NCBI GenBank assembly: GCA_016201905.1
Contig: JACQBQ010000001.1
Location: forward strand, 3,405 to 67,404
Source of the DNA: Candidatus Melainabacteria bacterium
GTDB lineage: Bacteria > Cyanobacteriota > Vampirovibrionia > 2-02-FULL-35-15
Length of the DNA stretch: 64,000 nt
Reading direction: 5' to 3'
A program made the position numbers and the translations under genes. Shown here one piece after another: positions 13,704 to 61,585 of the stretch. Below the pieces are notes generated by a model that ran no database searches, was not told the origin of the DNA, and saw nothing but the letters and a program-made list of their open reading frames with translations. Every line of letters begins with the position of its first letter. Position 1 is the first letter of the stretch.

Positions 13704-13799
13704 TGTCATTGCGAGCCCGACTCAGGCGGGCGAAGCAATCCCAAATGTTTTCATATTACAATCTGGACTGCTTCATTGCTTATGCTCCTTGCAGTGACA
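13704..13799. repeat. GC-rich palindromic mini-element, copy 1 (termini TGTCATTGCGAGC...GCAGTGACA), in the convergent intergenic region gatD / M16 peptidase
   Basis: About 60% GC in a ~30% GC background. Shares the CGAAGCAATC module and terminal inverted repeats with the other copies. Confidence 0.7.
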
Positions 13800-39555: not shown

Positions 39556-40641
39556 TTAGTTCTCAGCAACTCTAAGAGCAATAGTTTTTTGTTCGATTTT
39601 CTTTTTAATTTTTGGCAGCATGTTTATTGCTTCTTCTTCGCCTACTTTAATTGCTTTTGCAAGACTTACTTTATCAAGGTTTAATATGCCCACTTCTTTT
39701 AAGTCCGGGCTTATAACAATATCTGCTTTATCCAGAGCTGCCTCTGACTGTGCCCTTAATCCAAGACCAATAACACGGATAATAATGCCTTCAAAAGATC
39801 TAAAGTTTTCTGATTTTATTTCTTCAAGCTTTCTATCGACATCCACAGCAATAACAATATCTGCTCCCATTTTTTTTGCCTCATCAACAGGAATATTTTT
39901 TAAAATCCCGCCATCGACAAGTAGCTGGTTGTTAATCGGAATTGGCTGACGCAGTGTAGGTATTGAAGTGCTTGCCTGAACTGCAAGGCCAACATCCCCG
40001 GATTTTATTACCACTGGCAAGCCACTAATTAAATCAACTGCAATAATGTGTAATGGAATACTTATGTTAATTGTTCCATCTTTTTTTGAAATCAGTTGGT
40101 TTACAAAATGATGTAATCTATGGTCATTATATAAGCCAGCATAAAAAGGTTTTCCTACAATAGTCCGAAATCCTCTATTTAGATAGAGGAAAAATGCTCT
40201 AAAGATAGAAAAATCTGTTTTATATACTTTTGTTATTGCACCTGTTAAAACCTGCTCTTCAATTTCATCTGGACTTAGTCCTCCTGAATATAGTGCTGCA
40301 ATTAAAGCTCCAGCACTAGTACCGACAAGGTAATCAACAGGAATATTTTCTCTTTCAAGAACTCTTAAAACACCAATTTGTGCAGCACCACGTGCGCCAC
40401 CACCGCCCAACGCTAATCCAATCTTTGGTCTTATTACAGAACTATTTTTTGCAAGGGCAGATGAGGTAGTAAAAATGAGTAGAAAGCAAAGAAAAAGAGA
40501 AAAGTTCTTTACGTCATTGCGAGGAGTGAAAAGACGTTGCATGCAACGTCTCCACGGCAATCTCCCAAACGTTAATGAGATTGCTTCGTCGTCCGCCTGG
40601 GCGGACTCCTCGCAATGACGTGTCACATTTTTTTTCTTCAC
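39556..40641 (-). CDS. Patatin-like phospholipase
   Basis: GGGARGAAQIG, GTSAGAL (catalytic Ser) and VDGGILKN (catalytic Asp). The first ~35 codons, including both candidate start ATGs at 40641 and 40542, come from a GC-rich repeat element. Confidence 0.8.
   Translation of the reverse strand: MKKKNVTRHCEESAQADDEAISLTFGRLPWRRCMQRLFTPRNDVKNFSLFLCFLLIFTTSSALAKNSSVIRPKIGLALGGGGARGAAQIGVLRVLERENIPVDYLVGTSAGALIAALYSGGLSPDEIEEQVLTGAITKVYKTDFSIFRAFFLYLNRGFRTIVGKPFYAGLYNDHRLHHFVNQLISKKDGTINISIPLHIIAVDLISGLPVVIKSGDVGLAVQASTSIPTLRQPIPINNQLLVDGGILKNIPVDEAKKMGADIVIAVDVDRKLEEIKSENFRSFEGIIIRVIGLGLRAQSEAALDKADIVISPDLKEVGILNLDKVSLAKAIKVGEEEAINMLPKIKKKIEQKTIALRVAEN
40513..40619. repeat. GC-rich palindromic mini-element, copy 2 (GTCATTGCGAGGAG...CTCCTCGCAATGAC), forming the 5' coding end of the patatin gene
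   Basis: Perfect 14-nt terminal inverted repeats. Internal palindromes GACGTTGCATGCAACGTC and GTCCGCCTGGGCGGAC. Confidence 0.8.
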
Positions 40642-40644
40642 ACT

Positions 40645-41217
40645 TTATACCCCAATAAAACCATTTTCTTTTAACCACTTTAAAATTTTATCAGCGCTTT
40701 CTTCTGGACTTTGTTTATCAGTCTCGACAATAATTTCAGGATTTAAGGGCTCTTCATATGGATCGGATATCCCTGTAAATTGGGGCAACTCACCTGCCCT
40801 TGCTTTTTTGTATAAACCTTTTACATCTCTTTTTTCTGCAACTTCAAGTGGGCATTTTGCATAGACTTCTACAAAGTTTTCATGTAGGTTTCTTACTTCA
40901 TTTCTGATTTCCCTATATGGCGAGATGGCAGCAGTAACAGCAATGACGCCGTTTCTTGAGAGAAGACTTGCAACATATCCGATTCTTCTGATGTTTGCGT
41001 CGCGATCTTCTTTACTAAAACCAAGACCTTTACTTAGGTGGGTTCTAACAACATCACCGTCCAGAATTTCAATTTTTAGTCCTTGGGTTTTAAATCTTTT
41101 TTCAAGTATGTCAGCTATGGTAGATTTTCCTGCACCTGATAATCCTGTAAACCACAGGGTAAAGCCTATTTGTGTTTTGCTTGATTTTTTGCTTGTTTCA
41201 GTCGTTATGGAATTCAT
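40645..41217 (-). CDS. cysC: Adenylylsulfate (APS) kinase
   Basis: P-loop [18 protein letters not shown] and the full APS-kinase fold. No sulfate adenylyltransferase is adjacent. Confidence 0.9.
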
Positions 41218-48129: not shown

Positions 48130-50280
48130 CTACATAGTTGCACTAGCAACCAATTCACTAATATCTTTTACAGTTGGTGGTTCCCCGCTTTTATCAAGTG
48201 TTCTTGCAGTTTCAAGCATAATAGTACAGAAAGGACATGCGCTTGCAGCTGTCTTTGCACCTGATTCTTTAATTTCATTTAACCTCATAACGTTAATTTG
48301 TTTTCCAGGTGCTTCATACCAGAGCTGTGCTCCACCACCACCACAGCATGTCCCTTTTTCACGAGAGTTTTCCATTTCAATATATTTTAAGCCGGGGATT
48401 TTATTTAAAATGTTTCTTGGAGCATCATATTGACCATTATGACGACCAAGATAACAAGAATCGTGATAAGTTATTTCTTCACTGATTTCCTTTGTCATTG
48501 AGAGCTTTCCTTCTTTTATTAATTCCCATAAGATTTCAGTATGATGAAATACGCTGACATCTTTTAAGCCAAAGTCTGGATATTCATTTTTAAATGTATT
48601 AAAACAGTGGGGACAATGAGTAATAATTTTTTTAACATTTTTGCCTTTAAATATTTCAATATTTTCAATTGCCAGTTCCTGAAAAAGCCCTTCATCGCCA
48701 GCTCTGCGAGCTGTATCACCTGTGCATTTTTCTTTTTTGCCTAAAATTGCAAACTTTACATTTGCTTTTTTAAGTAAACTTACCATTGTCTTTGCAATAT
48801 TTTGATTTCTTGAATCATAAGCTCCAGCACAACCAACCCAGTATAAATATTCAAAGTCACTGGTAGTTTCAATGTTTGGAACATTCAGACCTTCTGTCCA
48901 TTTTTCACGATCTTCTGGTGGCTGCCCCCATGGATTTGAACGTGAACGAATATTTTTTAGGGTATTAAGCAGATTATTTGGTGCTTTATTTTCTGAAATT
49001 AATGACCTTCTTAAATCAATGATTTTTGTTAATTGATCAATTCCAACAGGGCAGGTCTCTACACAAGCTCGACAGGAAGTGCATGACCATAGGGTTTCAG
49101 GAGTAAGTAGATCAGATAAAGTTAGCGTTGTAGTGTCATTGCGAGCCGAAGGCAAAGCAATCTCGCTAACTGTTTCACGTTGTTGAGATTGCTTCGCTCG
49201 CCTCGTCGGAGACGAGTCGGAGCGGGTCGCTGCACTCCTCGCAATGACGCTATTCGGTTTCTCTTCCTGCTTTCCACCTTTAAACCCATGATTGAGAATA
49301 GGTTCCTTATTCATGATTTGCTTCAAATCTAAAATTATCCATTTAGGTGAAAGTGGTTTTTCTGAATTTGTTGCAGGACATACTTCATGACATTTTCCAC
49401 AGGCTGTACATGTGTCCAGATCCATTAAATCTTTCCATGTAAAATCTTCTATCTTTGAAACTGTTTGTGCAAAATCATCTGGTGGATTTTCCATTGCCAT
49501 GATCTCTACTAAGTTAAACGGTGTACTTAAAGCCCCTTTTGGTTTTAAGTCGCTAAAAAATATATTTATTGGTGCTATAAACATATGACTAAACTTTGTA
49601 AATGGAATTAGAGCAATAAATGAAAATGTTTGTATTGAATGAAGCCACCATAAAATGAGATGTAGTGTCTTTTGTGTTTCATAAGAAAATCCTTGAACGC
49701 TATTTGCTATAAGTGCTCCAAGAAATGCATAAGGTTCAATCTGATCTGTTGCTGATTGTCTTAAACCTTCGATTAAAAATCCAAGAACTACAAATAATGC
49801 CAAGTAGACTAATTGAAACCAATCGTTCTGAAAATTATCTAGTCTTTTTGGTTTTACAACATACCTAATAAATGCAAAAAATCCAAGACCAACGAGCATT
49901 AACACGCCAGATAAGTCCATTAAAAAAGAATAGGACTTGTAAAACATGCCATGAAAAAAATATTCAGGCATGCGATCCTGAACTGTAAGTATGTCAGTCC
50001 CTATCCACAAAACAAAAAATCCATAAAAAACTAATATATGTGCAAGGATTGGAAGCTTATCCTTTCCCCAGCCTTTATATAAAAAACTTCTTACAAACAT
50101 GTTTTGAATGCGCTTGCTGAAGTCAGTAAGGTTATTTTTTGGTTTGCCTCTTGCCCAGCTTTTAATTTTTAAATAAAACCCAGAGATAAAAAATATTGCT
50201 GAAATAAAAAATAAAGAATAGAAAATTTCTTTGTAATGAGGCACATCGTGAATATTCCACCATAGACCGCGTGTTTCCAT
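48130..50280 (-). CDS. HdrDE/DsrMK-like membrane-bound Fe-S oxidoreductase: N-terminal NarI-like di-heme b membrane domain fused to two [4Fe-4S] ferredoxin motifs and two CCG cysteine-rich domains
   Basis: 5-6 TM helices with paired His (ILAHILVFYGFF, HLILWWLHSIQT). CTACGKCHEVCP and CTSCRACVETCP motifs. CCG-type clusters (CCGGGG, CPFC, HCPHC). Carries an in-frame 114-nt repeat insertion. Confidence 0.7.
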   Translation of the reverse strand: METRGLWWNIHDVPHYKEIFYSLFFISAIFFISGFYLKIKSWARGKPKNNLTDFSKRIQNMFVRSFLYKGWGKDKLPILAHILVFYGFFVLWIGTDILTVQDRMPEYFFHGMFYKSYSFLMDLSGVLMLVGLGFFAFIRYVVKPKRLDNFQNDWFQLVYLALFVVLGFLIEGLRQSATDQIEPYAFLGALIANSVQGFSYETQKTLHLILWWLHSIQTFSFIALIPFTKFSHMFIAPINIFFSDLKPKGALSTPFNLVEIMAMENPPDDFAQTVSKIEDFTWKDLMDLDTCTACGKCHEVCPATNSEKPLSPKWIILDLKQIMNKEPILNHGFKGGKQEEKPNSVIARSAATRSDSSPTRRAKQSQQRETVSEIALPSARNDTTTLTLSDLLTPETLWSCTSCRACVETCPVGIDQLTKIIDLRRSLISENKAPNNLLNTLKNIRSRSNPWGQPPEDREKWTEGLNVPNIETTSDFEYLYWVGCAGAYDSRNQNIAKTMVSLLKKANVKFAILGKKEKCTGDTARRAGDEGLFQELAIENIEIFKGKNVKKIITHCPHCFNTFKNEYPDFGLKDVSVFHHTEILWELIKEGKLSMTKEISEEITYHDSCYLGRHNGQYDAPRNILNKIPGLKYIEMENSREKGTCCGGGGAQLWYEAPGKQINVMRLNEIKESGAKTAASACPFCTIMLETARTLDKSGEPPTVKDISELVASATM
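49135..49248. repeat. GC-rich palindromic mini-element, copy 3, inserted in-frame (114 nt = 38 codons) in the HdrDE-like gene
   Basis: Termini GTCATTGCGAGC...CCTCGCAATGAC. Internal CTCGTCGGAGACGAG and GCAAAGCAATCTC/GAGATTGCTTCGC. Confidence 0.8.
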
Positions 50281-52494: not shown

Positions 52495-52511
52495 ATGGTT
52501 ATTAATTATAA

Positions 52512-52585
52512 CGCTCCTTGCTCGCCTCTCTACGCGGGTCGCCTTTGGCGAATCTTGCTAGGGGTGGGGAGAGCGGACAATGACA
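52512..52585. repeat. Truncated or degenerate copy of the GC-rich element in the aroQ / 71-aa ORF divergent region
   Basis: Right terminus GGACAATGACA; shares a CCTTTGGC module with copy 6; GC-rich. Confidence 0.45.
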
Positions 52586-52623
52586 TAAAATGTGTTATCT
52601 TATTCTTTCAGGAGGTATTTAAA

Positions 52624-57423: not shown

Positions 57424-57574
57424 TGTCATTGCCCGGCTCCGCCTCGTCGGAGACGAGGCGAGCGAGGAGCGAAGCGACGAAGCAATCCCGATCGCAATTA
57501 AATCAAGACTTAACTAATAACCATTTTCATAATATTCTTAGTCTGGGACTGCTTTGCCTTTAGCTCGCAGTGAC
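57424..57574. repeat. Composite ~150-nt copy of the GC-rich element (TGTCATTGCCCGG...AGCTCGCAGTGACA) in the convergent region between the 102-aa ORF and pilC
   Basis: Termini match copy 1. It shares CCTCGTCGGAGACGAGG with copy 3 and GAAGCAATCCC with copy 1. The AT-rich middle suggests a two-module arrangement. Confidence 0.6.
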
Positions 57575-59065: not shown

Positions 59066-61585
59066 ATGAAATACAAATGGCTCATAAGAGAATCAAAAGA
59101 AATTACAAAGGATTTTCTTCATACTGCTTTTGATTCAAGAGTTATTGCCAAGTTACTTTTAAATAGAGGAATTGATTCACCTGAAAAAGCAAAATCTTAT
59201 TTAGAGCCAAAGTTTTATAAAGAATCCAGACCAGAAGAAATCCAGGATCTGATAAAAGCAAAAGATCGAATCATTGAAGCAATAAATAAAAAAGAAAAAA
59301 TTACTATTTTTGGAGATTATGATGTAGATGGTGTTACTTCTACAGCTTGTTTACTAATTGCCCTTAGACAATTTACCGATAACATTGACTTTTATATTCC
59401 AAATAGGCTTACTGAAGGCTATGGATTAAATAATGAAGCAGTTAAAATTATAGCTAAAAAAAATAAAAAGGCTTGCCATGGCAAGCCTTTACTGATTACC
59501 TGTGACTGTGGAATAACAAACCATAAAGAAGTCAAGCTTGCAGGTGAGCTTGGTATGGATGTAATAGTCACTGATCACCATTCTTTACCTGAAGTTTTGC
59601 CCGATGCTTATGCAGTCTTAAATCCAAAACTTTTGCCAGGTGATCATAAACTACACTTTTTGCCCGGAGTAGGCGTTGCTTATAAACTTGCTAAGGCAAT
59701 TTTAGAGGAAAGAAAAGGAGAAGTTTGCAAAGAAGATCTTCTTGATCTTGTAGCACTTGGAATGATTGCTGACCTTGCACCGCTTGTAGATGAAAACAGG
59801 TATTTAGTTCAGATTGGTCTTGAAAAATTAGCAAGAACTGAAAAGATTGGTTTAAGAGAACTGCTTAGGATGTGTGGCTTTACTCCACAGGATAAAAATA
59901 GTCCTACGACAGAACATGTTGGCTTTGGAATTGCACCAAGGATAAATGCTGTAGGCAGGCTTACAGATGCAGCTCTGGCTGTAAGGCTTTTAACTACCTG
60001 TGATTTATTTGAAGCTGTTCAAATAGCTGGTGAACTTGAAAGTCAAAACAGACAGAGACAGTCACTCTGTGAAAGCACATTAAATGAAGCTGTTACGCTT
60101 GTATCTGAGCAGGTAGATTTTAAAAATGATAAATGCATTGTGCTGGCTAAAGATAGCTGGCATCATGGAGTAATTGGGATTGTAGCTTCAAGAGTAGTTG
60201 AAAAATTTAGTTTACCTACTGTTTTAATCGCCATTGATAAAGAACAAAACATAGCGCGAGGTTCAGGGCGCAGCATTGAGAAGTTAAATATTGTAGATGC
60301 TTTAACTAAAAGCTCTAAACATCTTGAGAAATATGGCGGTCATAAAGCTGCATGCGGACTAAGTGTAAAACCTGAGTTTGTTAATGATTTTATTTTTGAT
60401 TTTAAAGACAATGTAAATAAAATGCTTGACAATCAGAATTTAGAACCTGTTTTAAAGATTGATATGGAATTACCGCTTTCAGCTTTAGTTATGGATTTAA
60501 TGAATAAAGTAAATAAATTATCGCCTTTTGGTTTAGGAAATCCTATGTCAATTTTTACAAGCGATGAAATTGAAATAATTGGCATTAAAAATATTGGTAA
60601 AAACGGCCAGCATTTGAAGCTGACCTTAAGAACTTTGGATAGTGTCATTGCGAGGAGCAAAGAGACGTTGCATGCAACGTCTCCACAGCAATCTCAACAA
60701 CATGAAGAAGTGATCGAGATTGCTTCGCCTTTGGCTCGGAATGATGTGAAGCAGTTTGAAGCTCTAATCTGGAATCATAATGTTAATTTGCGATTTAATT
60801 TAGGAGATCAAATAAAAATCGCCTACACGCCAAAGTTAAATAATTACAATGGTGAGACATTTATACAGCTGGAAGTAAAAGACTGGCAGATCTTAAATGA
60901 TAAGAGTTTAGAAAATAAGAAAATTAAAAAAGAAGAAAAAGAAATTGAAATTTATGATTTTAGAGACAAAACACAAGAATTGTTAAGTATTCTTTCCTCA
61001 AGGCTTGATTCTGTAACCTGTTTTGCTGAGATTGAGCAAAAAAATCATTTAGATCTAAAAACCTTTTCAAGAAACAAAATTAAAAAAGCTGAAAGCCTTG
61101 TTTTTTTGGAAATCCCTCCTGACGAGTTTGTCTTTTTAGATATAATAAAACGCTCATGTGCTAAAAAGATTTACTTTGCATTTACCCAGCATCAAAATAA
61201 CTTAGAACCCCAGAATTTATTAAAAAGACTCATTGGTATGCTTAAATATGCAGTAAGCAATAAAAACTCAATCATAAACGAAACGGAGCTCCAGTCAGCT
61301 TTAGGTATAAATAGAACATCACTGGCTTATGCACTGGAAATACTTGTAAAGATAGGACTCTTATCGTATGAAAAGACAAACGGTGAATTAAATATCAATC
61401 TTTTAACTCCTGCTCGACAGAATTTCCTAGAGTTAATAGAATATAACCTGCTGGTTTCAGAGTTAAAACAAATTTTAGATTTTAAGAACTGGCTTTGTGA
61501 ATCTGATATTCTGCAAATAGAAAAGATGTTGAATGAACACAATATTTTGGCAAAGTTTATTTCTTATGAATCAATAAAGGTATAG
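59066..61585 (+). CDS. recJ: Single-stranded-DNA-specific exonuclease RecJ with a ~280-aa C-terminal extension
   Basis: DHH motifs (GDYDVDGVTS, TDHHS), the DHHA1 domain, and an OB-fold region carrying an in-frame GC-rich repeat insertion. Confidence 0.85.
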   Translation: MKYKWLIRESKEITKDFLHTAFDSRVIAKLLLNRGIDSPEKAKSYLEPKFYKESRPEEIQDLIKAKDRIIEAINKKEKITIFGDYDVDGVTSTACLLIALRQFTDNIDFYIPNRLTEGYGLNNEAVKIIAKKNKKACHGKPLLITCDCGITNHKEVKLAGELGMDVIVTDHHSLPEVLPDAYAVLNPKLLPGDHKLHFLPGVGVAYKLAKAILEERKGEVCKEDLLDLVALGMIADLAPLVDENRYLVQIGLEKLARTEKIGLRELLRMCGFTPQDKNSPTTEHVGFGIAPRINAVGRLTDAALAVRLLTTCDLFEAVQIAGELESQNRQRQSLCESTLNEAVTLVSEQVDFKNDKCIVLAKDSWHHGVIGIVASRVVEKFSLPTVLIAIDKEQNIARGSGRSIEKLNIVDALTKSSKHLEKYGGHKAACGLSVKPEFVNDFIFDFKDNVNKMLDNQNLEPVLKIDMELPLSALVMDLMNKVNKLSPFGLGNPMSIFTSDEIEIIGIKNIGKNGQHLKLTLRTLDSVIARSKETLHATSPQQSQQHEEVIEIASPLARNDVKQFEALIWNHNVNLRFNLGDQIKIAYTPKLNNYNGETFIQLEVKDWQILNDKSLENKKIKKEEKEIEIYDFRDKTQELLSILSSRLDSVTCFAEIEQKNHLDLKTFSRNKIKKAESLVFLEIPPDEFVFLDIIKRSCAKKIYFAFTQHQNNLEPQNLLKRLIGMLKYAVSNKNSIINETELQSALGINRTSLAYALEILVKIGLLSYEKTNGELNINLLTPARQNFLELIEYNLLVSELKQILDFKNWLCESDILQIEKMLNEHNILAKFISYESIKV
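60644..60746. repeat. GC-rich palindromic mini-element, copy 6 (near-identical 5' half to copy 2), inserted in-frame in recJ
   Basis: GTCATTGCGAGGAGCAAAGAGACGTTGCATGCAACGTCTCCAC...GAGATTGCTTCG...CTCGGAATGATG. Confidence 0.75.

What the first reader, a model, noticed from the sequence alone, without database searches (positions are those of the whole stretch)
49135..49248. Palindromic element inserted in-frame inside the HdrDE-like oxidoreductase gene
The element is exactly 114 nt (38 codons). It sits between the first ferredoxin-type Cys cluster (CTACGKCHEVCP) and the second (CTSCRACVETCP) of the minus-strand ORF 48130..50280. It adds the peptide SVIARSAATRSDSSPTRRAKQSQQRETVSEIALPSARND without any stop codon. 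This behaviour is the hallmark of RPE-1-type elements.
Basis: partly seen in the sequence, partly recalled or inferred. Interest (0 to 1): 0.7.

Follow-up and report, generated by a model that had tools for sequence, protein, structure and literature searches.

The report
In-frame palindromic repeat inside EtfD-like gene
A 114-base copy of a widespread palindromic "selfish" DNA repeat sits in-frame inside an intact respiratory iron-sulfur enzyme gene of a Melainabacteria genome, where it adds a floppy 38-residue surface loop; this behaviour is already known from Rickettsia but is seen here in a new lineage and with a different repeat family.

Summary
Window 49135..49248 (minus strand) is a 114-nt, 57% GC nested palindrome in a 34% GC genome. 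It lies in-frame in the intact 716-aa ORF 48130..50280, between its two CxxCxxCxxxCP motifs, and encodes residues 345-382.

It is one of five copies in the window of a dispersed repeat with termini [C/T]GTCATTGCGAG...CTCGCAATGAC. A second copy is in-frame inside recJ. The element is a canonical 84-nt family unit plus a 30-nt nested palindrome.

About 45 of 52 close orthologs (66-80% identity) have no insert at this position. A different, 100%-bootstrap clade carries an 84-nt copy, a half copy, or an unrelated GTAG-type palindrome in the same loop, so this loop has been colonised more than once.

AlphaFold models the whole protein confidently (pLDDT 89.5) except residues 339-383. The homologous loop is unresolved in the cryo-EM structure of M. 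smegmatis EtfD, the closest solved relative.

The same repeat family occurs in at least 11 phyla and in phage contigs, and it is in-frame inside uvrA and O-antigen ligase genes elsewhere.

It behaves like Rickettsia RPEs but is not RPE-1. Its CGTC/TGTC tags and ATGAC termini resemble the CGTC-tagged REP / RPE-4/6/7 class. I found no target-site duplication and no associated transposase. Verdict: a new member of a known kind.

The parts
48130..50280 (-). Host gene: intact 716-aa EtfD-like membrane Fe-S oxidoreductase (NarI-like transmembrane domain, two 4Fe-4S motifs, two CCG domains)
   Evidence: ORF. Pfam CCG, Fer4_x and Nitrate_red_gam. Foldseek to M. smegmatis EtfD 9ojn: E 8e-38, TM 0.80. 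phmmer 6e-118. All 65 invariant alignment columns are retained. AF2 pLDDT 89.5.
49135..49248 (-). The 114-nt palindromic element, in-frame; encodes residues 345-382 (VIARS...ARND)
   Evidence: Absent from about 45 of 52 close orthologs. pLDDT about 40 and coil over residues 339-383.
49238..49252 (-). 5' (coding-sense) terminus TAG-C-GTCATTGCGAG, with a CGTC tag
   Evidence: Across 129 family copies the base before GTCATTGCGAG is C in 64% and T in 33%.
49131..49145 (+). 3' (coding-sense) terminus, read on the plus strand as TAG-T-GTCATTGCGAG, with a TGTC tag
49152..49197 (-). Inner stem-loop: arms GCGAAGCAATCTC / GAGATTGCTTTGC around a 20-nt loop
   Evidence: The inner stem is conserved, and its distal pairs covary across the family.
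49197..49226 (-). Nested 30-nt palindrome CCCGCTCCGACTCGTCTCCGACGAGGCGAG. Removing it leaves exactly the modal 84-nt family unit.
   Evidence: The same hairpin core is found in the window only here and at 57443-57457, where it sits at a different position of its host element.
60644..60745 (+). Second in-frame copy (102 nt, 34 codons) inside the RecJ-like ORF 59066..61585
   Evidence: Most orthologs are empty at this site.
40513..40619 (+). Copy (107 nt) between the APS-kinase gene and the patatin-like gene. It overlaps the longest-ORF N-terminus of the patatin-like gene.
13705..13798 (+). Copy (94 nt, degenerate right end) packed between the stops of two convergent genes
57425..57574 (-). Copy (150 nt, AT-rich expanded centre) between the stops of two convergent genes. 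Its right terminus is split by the same nested hairpin.

Best explanation
The segment is a copy of a dispersed, non-autonomous palindromic repeat of the REP-dimer / MITE-like kind. A family unit is about 84 nt with termini [C/T]GTCATTGCGAG...CTCGCAATGAC[A/G]. This copy also carries a 30-nt secondary palindrome. It landed inside the coding sequence of an EtfD-like membrane Fe-S oxidoreductase, in the loop that links the two [4Fe-4S]-binding motifs.

The copy persists for three reasons. Its length is a multiple of three (84 + 30 nt). It has no stop codon in the frame used. The loop it occupies is an intrinsically disordered, length-variable surface loop. The gene is therefore read through, and the enzyme gains 38 hydrophilic residues (rich in S, A, R, T and Q) that most likely neither help nor harm it.

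The pattern is insertion followed by a selective filter. Copies elsewhere in the window sit just after the stops of convergent genes, as REPs typically do. Within genes, only in-frame copies in permissive loops are seen.

Shown: membership of a repeat family, the in-frame position, absence from most orthologs, the independent origin of the other filled orthologs, predicted disorder, and intactness of the host gene.

Inferred: that the peptide is translated and neutral, and that the element arrived by transposition-like insertion through an unknown enzyme. I found no target-site duplication and no linked transposase.
For: Repeat family:
- Five copies lie in the 64-kb window.
- More than 120 genome loci in at least 11 phyla carry the same architecture.
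- Paired positions beyond the conserved cores covary: both sides changed in 9-12 of 37 sequences.

Foreign composition: 57% GC against 34% for the window.

Insertion rather than ancestral linker:
- About 45 of 52 orthologs at 66-80% identity show a gap exactly here. The DNA alignment confirms it.
- With the loop masked, the other filled orthologs fall in a clade with 100/100 bootstrap support. The query joins that clade in 0 of 100 replicates.
- In that clade the same loop holds an 84-nt copy (L001, L002), a half copy (L003), nothing (P0007, P0026), or a different GTAG-type perfect palindrome that also has an intergenic copy (L006).

Permissive site:
- The AF2 model has pLDDT 89.5, and the only internal low-confidence stretch is residues 339-383.
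- The homologous loop (residues 348-373) is missing from the cryo-EM model of M. smegmatis EtfD (PMC13083937; alignment).

Host gene intact: the full ORF and all invariant Cys, CCG and other columns are present.

Generality:
- A second in-frame copy lies in recJ of the same window. Orthologous recJ genes carry family copies at two recurrent sites, in different reading frames.
- In other phyla there are in-frame copies in uvrA and in Wzy_C O-antigen ligase genes.

Coding compatibility: the element is stop-free in 3 of 6 frames. Family members are open in 38-50% of frames, against 23-31% for inner-shuffled controls.
Against: - No same-species or very close genome with an empty site is available. 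The closest ortholog is about 85% identical outside the loop. The insertion event, its exact boundaries and any target duplication therefore cannot be reconstructed at this locus.
- The loop varies in length among all homologs, so part of the length difference is ordinary loop variation.
- There are no transcript or protein data, so translation of the insert and activity of the enzyme are inferred.
- No transposase recurs next to family copies, and flanks show no TSD. The mobility mechanism is unknown.
- The right junction of the query copy and of the L001/L002 copies lies within about one codon of the same position. This could point to a targeted site, or to a single old event, rather than to pure chance plus selection.
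Confidence: 0.85

Rival explanations
1. The insert has been exapted. The extra loop (a new interaction or regulatory surface near the Fe-S relay), or the very stable mRNA hairpin (translation pausing, RNase processing, mRNA stabilisation), now has a function in this gene.
For: The RNA fold is very stable: -57.6 kcal/mol, z = -5.6. The same loop is occupied in several independent lineages. In mycobacterial EtfD, disordered regions are proposed to contact ETF (PMC13083937). Di Nocera et al. speculate that intragenic REPs modify repair proteins.
Against: Most orthologs work without any insert. The occupants of the loop are unrelated sequences: the 84-nt family, a GTAG palindrome, and other GC-rich stretches. 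Copies decay to halves or vanish (L003, P0007, P0026; in recJ P0146 retains only 'SVIARGD'). The peptide is predicted to be disordered and has no conserved motif beyond what the DNA palindrome dictates. No promoter-like, terminator-like or Rfam signal was found.
Confidence: 0.08
2. A single ancient insertion. The element entered the loop once in a common ancestor of the query and the P0001/P0002/P0027 lineage, and was precisely lost many times.
For: The orientation, the reading frame (SVIARS...ARND) and the right junction (within about one codon) are the same in the query and in L001/L002. The deep branches of the ortholog tree are short.
Against: The query never joins the filled clade (0/100 bootstraps), while that clade has 100/100 support. 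Dozens of independent clean losses would be required. The left junction differs by 6 codons. Element DNA is more alike (about 77% in a codon alignment) than host third codon positions (about 55%), as expected if both derive more recently from a conserved family master. recJ orthologs show the same site filled in different element frames, which proves that recurrent insertion occurs.
Confidence: 0.1
3. The segment is an ordinary, lineage-specific linker that only resembles a repeat by chance, or it is an assembly artefact.
For: The loop is variable in length in the whole protein family, and it is long in mycobacterial EtfD.
Against: The 11-mer termini occur 8 times against 0.36 expected. Four further copies in the window have the same architecture. 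After removal of the nested hairpin the segment is an exact 84-nt match to the family architecture seen across phyla. There is a GC spike. Related contigs from independent assemblies carry the element at the same loop.
Confidence: 0.02
4. The insertion has inactivated the gene, leaving a young pseudogene whose frame happens still to be open.
For: No expression data exist. The insert sits between two cofactor-binding motifs.
Against: The full-length ORF retains every invariant residue. The structure outside the loop is predicted confidently. The insert lies in a loop that is disordered in the solved homolog. Orthologs with an 84-nt insert are likewise intact in two independent assemblies.
Confidence: 0.05

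Closest known systems
Rickettsia palindromic elements RPE-1/2/3 (Ogata et al. 2000, 2002; summarised in PMC10969869 and PMC3767692)
   Same: Palindromic repeats of 100-150 bp, found many times in-frame inside unrelated housekeeping genes without breaking the frame. The encoded peptides lie in solvent-exposed regions. No transposase or target-site duplication is evident.
   Different: RPE-1 is specific to Rickettsia. ATGAC is nearly absent from RPE-1/2/3/5 (0.1 per kb), whereas this element ends in GTCAT/ATGAC. RPE-1 inserts are conserved at the same site in orthologs, while here most orthologs are empty. Direct sequence comparison with the RPE-1 consensus could not be run.
CGTC-tagged REP superfamily, which includes Rickettsia RPE-4 and RPE-6 (Di Nocera et al. 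2013, PMC3733652); also RPE-7 and Wolbachia WPE, which share the ATGAC motif (PMC3767692)
   Same: A terminal CGTC tag, often changed to TGTC, followed by AT; a GC-rich palindrome; a 3-nt tail; inverted dimers that can fold as one large hairpin; placement just downstream of ORFs, especially convergent ones; intragenic in-frame copies, notably in replication and repair genes (uvrA, recB, dnaE; here recJ and uvrA) and in O-antigen ligase; no dedicated transposase; different repeat types at the same site in orthologs.
   Different: Described CGTC monomers have 8-9 bp stems and 4-5 nt loops. Here each half pairs only through ATTGC/GCAAT (5 bp) around a long variable segment, and the stable structure is the whole 84-nt unit with arms of about 30 nt. 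The stem sequence ATTGCGAG...GAAGCAAT does not appear among the REP-encoded peptides listed for CGTC-1 to CGTC-4. The tail is CTC/CCC/CCA rather than a CCA consensus.
Bacterial MITEs (Correia, ERIC, BOX, Nezha and others; review PMC10969869)
   Same: Small non-autonomous elements with terminal inverted repeats, dispersed copies, and occasional in-frame fusions with host ORFs.
   Different: No target-site duplication. No recognisable parent insertion sequence. The distribution spans phyla, with invariant 11-nt termini.
Small dispersed repeats nested in larger repeats of filamentous cyanobacteria (Elhai et al. 2008, recalled from memory and not read here); GTAG-15 dimers inside long palindromes of Anabaena (PMC3733652)
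   Same: Mini-palindromes of 20-30 nt are found inside larger palindromic repeats, at varying positions.
   Different: The sequences are different. The mobility of the nested hairpins here is only inferred, from two copies each.

Membership tests
RPE-1 (Rickettsia palindromic element type 1) | Occurs in Rickettsia genomes | tested here: not met
   Host-gene and recJ homologs are from Melainabacteria, Caenarcaniphilales and Obscuribacterales MAGs. Window GC is 34%.
RPE-1 (Rickettsia palindromic element type 1) | Sequence similarity to the RPE-1 consensus | not testable with these tools
   No RPE-1 sequence could be retrieved. Ogata 2002 is not held and the literature search found no consensus.
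RPE-1 (Rickettsia palindromic element type 1) | ATGAC motif essentially absent (0.1 per kb in RPE-1/2/3/5) | tested here: not met
   The element begins with GTCAT and ends with ATGAC. Frequencies are from PMC3767692.
RPE-1 (Rickettsia palindromic element type 1) | Palindromic, 100-150 bp, inserted in-frame in protein genes, encoding a surface-exposed peptide | tested here: met
CGTC-tagged REP superfamily (includes RPE-4 and RPE-6) | Unpaired terminal CGTC tag (variants TGTC, CCTC) | tested here: met
   CGTC at one end and TGTC at the other end of this copy. Across 129 family copies the base is C in 64% and T in 33%.
CGTC-tagged REP superfamily (includes RPE-4 and RPE-6) | Monomer stem of 8-9 bp beginning with AT, and a loop of 4-5 nt | tested here: not met
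   Each half starts with AT (ATTGC) but pairs with GCAAT over only 5 bp. The intervening segment is 9-40 nt.
CGTC-tagged REP superfamily (includes RPE-4 and RPE-6) | 3-nt tail after the stem (consensus CCA) | tested here: inconclusive
   GCAATC is followed by TC, CC or CA, and this stretch pairs with the opposite half.
CGTC-tagged REP superfamily (includes RPE-4 and RPE-6) | Predominantly inverted dimers able to fold as one large stem-loop, with homo- and heterodimers | tested here: met
   Two mirrored halves of 'long' and 'short' type; both heterodimers and homodimers are seen. The query copy is long + short.
CGTC-tagged REP superfamily (includes RPE-4 and RPE-6) | No associated transposase; dispersed copies mostly downstream of ORFs, some intragenic | tested here: met
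   Window copies at 13705 and 57425 lie between convergent stops. Two copies are intragenic. No transposase was found among the 10 neighbouring genes or among recurrent neighbours in about 200 loci.
Classical MITE | Terminal inverted repeats flanked by a target-site duplication | tested here: not met
   Terminal inverted repeats are present. Direct-repeat flanks are at or below chance: 4 observed against 8 expected for 2 nt, and 2 against 2 for 3 nt.
EtfD / HdrD-like membrane oxidoreductase (host gene) | NarI-like transmembrane domain, two 4Fe-4S motifs and two CCG domains; full-length similarity to solved EtfD | tested here: met
   Pfam. 9ojn by Foldseek, E 8e-38, TM 0.80. phmmer 6e-118 over residues 51-692.

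The most novel reading that the evidence does not exclude
The element represents an undescribed, pan-bacterial family of 84-nt palindromes with invariant [C/T]GTCATTGCGAG termini. The family is present in at least 11 phyla and in phage structural-gene clusters, and it is coding-compatible. It repeatedly colonises the same positions of conserved proteins (EtfD-like, RecJ at two sites, UvrA, O-antigen ligase). This would imply either real target-site selection or an unknown, widely conserved (possibly host- or phage-encoded) mobilising activity, and a general RPE-like route of protein-loop evolution well beyond Rickettsia.
Probability: 0.3. Interest if true: 0.65.

Novelty: new member of a known kind. 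Interest (0 to 1): 0.4.

Why it matters
The finding extends the Rickettsia paradigm of "selfish DNA inside protein-coding genes" to the non-photosynthetic sister lineage of cyanobacteria, and to a repeat family that is shared across many phyla and also occurs in phage contigs.

It provides natural insertion-tolerance maps for EtfD-like enzymes and for RecJ.

It also matters for annotation. These inserts inflate protein lengths, create spurious small ORFs, and can shift predicted start codons, as at 40513-40619.

The recurrent use of the same loops by different repeats poses a testable question: is this a hotspot or a selective filter? That question was already raised for RPE-4/6/7 (PMC3767692) and is still unresolved.

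Tried and rejected
- Literature string searches for the termini (CATTGCGAG, GTCATTGCGAGG, ATTGCGAGCGAAGC) returned only primers in unrelated papers. No name for this family was found.
- A search for papers on Melainabacteria palindromic repeats found nothing relevant.
- The RPE-1 consensus could not be retrieved.
- A profile of element-encoded peptides, searched against the 5.8-billion-protein database, gave only 17 weak hits. All were short (31-72 aa) unannotated ORFs, so it gave no census of decorated proteins. The first attempt failed on the minimum query length.
- The exact host protein is not on record in the contig index, so no source genome or same-species empty site could be obtained.
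- Rfam gave nothing at gathering thresholds for the whole window. At relaxed thresholds it gave only a sub-threshold SAH-riboswitch match (18.6 bits against a gathering score of 37, E = 0.26), which I regard as chance.
- No promoter-like or terminator-like consensus lies in or near the element.
- Guilt by association for a transposase: 1691 neighbour ORFs from about 200 family loci were clustered. The recurrent clusters are phage structural genes and short-chain dehydrogenases, not transposases.
- Target-site duplication test was negative.
- Intein, intron and translational-bypass readings were considered and dropped. The segment is only 114 nt, stop-free and in-frame, and it has no catalytic motifs.
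Full report
**1. Observation**

The minus-strand ORF 48130..50280 encodes a 716-aa protein. Window 49135..49248 is 114 nt. In the ORF's frame it reads VIARSAATRSDSSPTRRAKQSQQRETVSEIALPSARND, residues 345-382, with no stop. It lies between CTACGKCHEVCP (residue 291) and CTSCRACVETCP (residue 400).

The segment is a nested palindrome.
- The outer arms are GTCATTGCGAG/CTCGCAATGAC, and pairing extends to TAG[C/T]GTCATTGCGAG (49131-49252).
- The inner arms are GCGAAGCAATCTC/GAGATTGCTTTGC.
- A small 9-bp hairpin lies at 49199-49219.

As DNA it folds at -34.9 kcal/mol (z = -4.4). As RNA it folds at -57.6 kcal/mol (z = -5.6). In both cases no shuffle out of 200 folds as well. Its GC content is 57%, against 33.8% for the window.

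**2. It is a copy of a dispersed repeat**

The 11-mer terminus occurs 8 times in the window against 0.36 expected. BLAST and inspection define five copies with the same architecture:
- 13705-13798
- 40513-40619
- 49135-49248
- 57425-57574
- 60644-60745

Two of them (13705 and 57425) are wedged between the stop codons of convergent genes. This is the typical placement of REP-type repeats (PMC3733652). One lies between two co-directional genes and overlaps the longest-ORF start of the downstream gene. The copy at 60644-60745 (102 nt, 34 codons) is in-frame inside a RecJ-like gene and reads VIARSKETLHATSPQQSQQHEEVIEIASPLARND.

**3. Family anatomy**

I scanned one genome per GTDB species for GTCATTGCGAG-N62-92-CTCGCAATGAC. 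The hits came from Pseudomonadota, Bacteroidota, Chloroflexota, Patescibacteria, Planctomycetota, Desulfobacterota, Bacillota, Ignavibacteriota, Zixiibacteriota, Margulisiibacteriota and Melainabacteria (Caenarcanales). A further 87 stretches were found in IMG/VR viral contigs.

The modal unit is 84-88 nt. It consists of the terminus, then a 'short' (GAG-CGAAGC-GAAGCAATC) or 'long' (GAG-GAGCNNAGCGAC-GAAGCAATC) half, then a stem extension that differs between copies but stays complementary, then a loop, and then the mirrored half. In the stem extension both sides changed in 9-12 of 37 sequences.

The base before the terminus is C in 64% of ends and T in 33%, giving a CGTC or TGTC tag. Flanks show no target-site duplication.

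Removing the 30 nt CCCGCTCCGACTCGTCTCCGACGAGGCGAG (49197-49226) from the query copy leaves exactly 84 nt of canonical long-plus-short architecture. The same hairpin core occurs in the window only once more, at 57443-57457, where it splits the right terminus of another copy. The 114 nt are therefore a composite of 84 + 30 nt, and both parts are multiples of three.

**4. It is an insertion relative to orthologs**

The 52 closest homologs are 66-80% identical and come from Melainabacteria MAGs. They align colinearly. About 45 have nothing at this position, and their lengths are 657-680 aa. The query would be 678 aa without the insert.

P0001 and P0002 carry an 84-nt copy (SVIARS[S/Q]ATKQSHKHSNGDEIASPSARND). 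P0027 carries a left half only. The DNA alignment confirms these states and the empty sites in L004 and L005.

With the loop masked, P0001, P0002, P0007, P0023, P0026 and P0027 form a clade in 100/100 bootstrap replicates. The query falls inside that clade in 0/100 replicates, and its sister is always an empty-site taxon. The left junctions differ by 6 codons, while the right junctions coincide within about one codon.

Host third codon positions are about 55% identical between the query and any ortholog. The aligned element positions are about 77% identical.

Within the filled clade, P0007 and P0026 are empty. P0023 (L006, GCA_023250195.1) carries in the same loop a different, perfect 15+15-nt GTAG-type palindrome, which has a second, intergenic copy 3 kb away.

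The most economical reading is repeated, independent colonisation of one permissive loop, with decay and loss. A single ancient insertion followed by many clean losses cannot be strictly excluded. I give it about 0.1.

**5. Structural context**

Pfam finds a NarI-like membrane domain, 4Fe-4S dicluster motifs and two CCG domains. The AlphaFold model, built from an 88-sequence alignment, has pLDDT 89.5 and pTM 0.87. The only internal segment below pLDDT 50 is residues 339-383, modelled as coil. This is the insert plus a few flanking residues.

The best structural match is M. smegmatis EtfD (9ojn; Foldseek E 8e-38, TM 0.80; phmmer 6e-118). EtfD is the membrane protein that links ETF and beta-oxidation to menaquinone (PMC13083937). 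In that cryo-EM structure, loop 348-373 is one of only two internal loops that could not be modelled. In the pairwise alignment it corresponds to the query's insert region.

All 65 invariant columns of the family alignment are present in the query. The host gene therefore looks functional, and the insert occupies an intrinsically disordered, length-variable loop.

**6. In-frame residence is a property of the family**

recJ orthologs show family copies at the query's site in P0123 (read in the HCEE frame), and in P0136 and P0145 (read in the VIAR frame). P0146 retains only a remnant, 'SVIARGD'. A second recJ site, around residues 214-250, is filled in P0122, P0123, P0140 and P0156, with '..ARND' remnants in three others. 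Most orthologs are empty at both sites. Different element frames at the same host site demonstrate independent insertions.

In other phyla the element is in-frame in a UvrA (L032) and in or at the end of two Wzy_C O-antigen ligases (L124, L017). These are gene classes that also carry RPE-4/6/7 or REPs in Rickettsia and elsewhere.

The query element is stop-free in 3 of 6 frames. Family copies are stop-free in 38-50% of frames, against 23-31% for inner-shuffled controls. This is a modest enrichment.

**7. Mechanism**

Shown:
- a multi-copy palindromic repeat
- its in-frame, stop-free presence in a disordered loop of an intact gene
- recurrent occupation of the same loops
- copies that decay

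Inferred:
- The element inserts by an unknown DNA-level process. Hairpin-dependent, Y1-transposase-like mobilisation is the obvious model by analogy with GTAG REPs and RAYTs. However, no transposase lies near the copies in the window or recurs near about 200 family loci. This matches the statement that CGTC REPs lack a dedicated transposase.
- Selection then removes every intragenic insertion except in-frame ones in tolerant loops.
- The peptide is translated and is near neutral.

I found no evidence for a regulatory role. There is no promoter-like or terminator-like consensus and no Rfam family.

**8. Comparison with known systems**

Functionally this is the RPE phenomenon (PMC10969869). It is not RPE-1. 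The taxon is wrong, and the ATGAC/GTCAT termini are a signature of RPE-4/6/7 that is virtually absent from RPE-1/2/3/5.

The closest described class is the CGTC-tagged REP superfamily, which includes RPE-4 and RPE-6. Shared features:
- the CGTC/TGTC tag followed by AT
- inverted dimers that fold as one hairpin
- placement after convergent ORFs
- intragenic copies in repair genes
- no transposase

It fails the stem and loop definition of that class, which is an 8-9 bp stem with a 4-5 nt loop. Here each half has a 5-bp ATTGC/GCAAT stem around a long variable segment. Its sequence is also not among the listed CGTC-1 to CGTC-4 peptides. I therefore treat it as a relative or analogue, not a demonstrated member. 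It lacks the target-site duplication of classical MITEs.

**9. Verdict**

This is a real feature, correctly spotted. It is a new member of a known kind: in-frame palindromic repeat insertion of the RPE/REP type. It occurs in a lineage, and with a repeat family, for which I found no description.

Interest is moderate at 0.4. The single insertion is unsurprising to a specialist. The more interesting aspects are the cross-phylum and phage-associated family with invariant termini, the absence of any known mobilising enzyme, and the repeated hits in the same protein loops.

Noticed in passing
window 60644-60745 (in ORF 59066..61585, +): A second in-frame copy of the same repeat (34 codons) lies inside a RecJ-like exonuclease, just after the HLKLTL strand where similarity to solved RecJ ends. 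Melainabacteria recJ orthologs carry family copies at this site and at a second site around residues 214-250. They are read in different element frames, and some orthologs hold only remnants such as SVIARGD or ..ARND.
   Followed up: yes
window 40513-40619: This copy lies between the APS-kinase gene (40645..41217) and the patatin-like gene. The longest ORF of the patatin-like gene (39556..40641) starts upstream of the element and reads through it (HCEE...PRND). A signal-peptide-like sequence starts right after the element, so the annotated N-terminus may be spurious.
   Followed up: partly
window 49197-49226 and 57431-57462: The same ~30-nt GC-rich mini-palindrome (core CTCGTC-GGA-GACGAG on the plus strand) occurs only inside these two repeat copies, at different positions of the host element. 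In the second copy it splits the terminus CCTCGC|...|GCAATGAC. It may be a nested secondary mobile hairpin or a variable side-hairpin slot.
   Followed up: partly
window 40533-40550 and 60664-60681; L003 6042, L006 6084, L001 2337: An 18-20-nt perfect palindrome, (A)GACGTTGCATGCAACGTC(T), is nested in two other copies in the window. In related contigs it lies inside the methylisocitrate-lyase (prpB-like) coding sequence, giving the peptide ETLHATS. A GTAG-tagged variant, GTAGGGACGTAGCATGCTACGTCCCTAC, sits at the stop codon of the EtfD-like gene in L001.
   Followed up: partly
L006 11017-11047 and 7920-7948: In GCA_023250195.1 the same EtfD-like loop holds a different repeat, the perfect palindrome AGTAGAGGTTGGTTT-T-AAACCAACCTCTACT (GTAG...CTAC type). 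A second copy lies between the citrate synthase and UDG genes. P0033 and P0041 carry further GC-rich inserts in this loop, which I did not characterise.
   Followed up: partly
window 52507-52587: An intergenic GC-rich (65%) stretch upstream of the dehydroquinase gene ends in ...GCGGACAATGACA. It may be a sixth, degenerate or truncated copy of the family, or another repeat.
   Followed up: no
L128-L214 (IMG/VR contigs), e.g. L137 324-409, L142 5836-6627, L148 1122-1335: The same palindrome family occurs in 87 viral-contig stretches. Several lie next to phage portal, capsid, tail-tube and GTA-like (DUF2460, BR0599) genes. This is a possible vehicle for spread between lineages. I did not verify whether these contigs are true phages or proviral or host regions.
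   Followed up: partly
L032 2835-2921; L124; L017: In other phyla the family sits in-frame in a UvrA (SVIASKAKQSHSTGSANNGIATSPLAPRND, between the ABC modules) and in two Wzy_C O-antigen ligases. The same gene classes are decorated by RPE-4/6/7 in Rickettsia.
   Followed up: partly
window 48130..50280: The host gene is better described as EtfD-like (ETF:menaquinone oxidoreductase type) than as HdrDE. It has a full-length match to M. smegmatis EtfD. Mycobacterial EtfD also has a long, unresolved loop at the same position.
   Followed up: yes
window 49116-49246 (-): A sub-threshold Rfam match to the SAH riboswitch aptamer (18.6 bits against a gathering score of 37, E = 0.26). I regard it as a chance match to a GC-rich multi-hairpin.
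   Followed up: no
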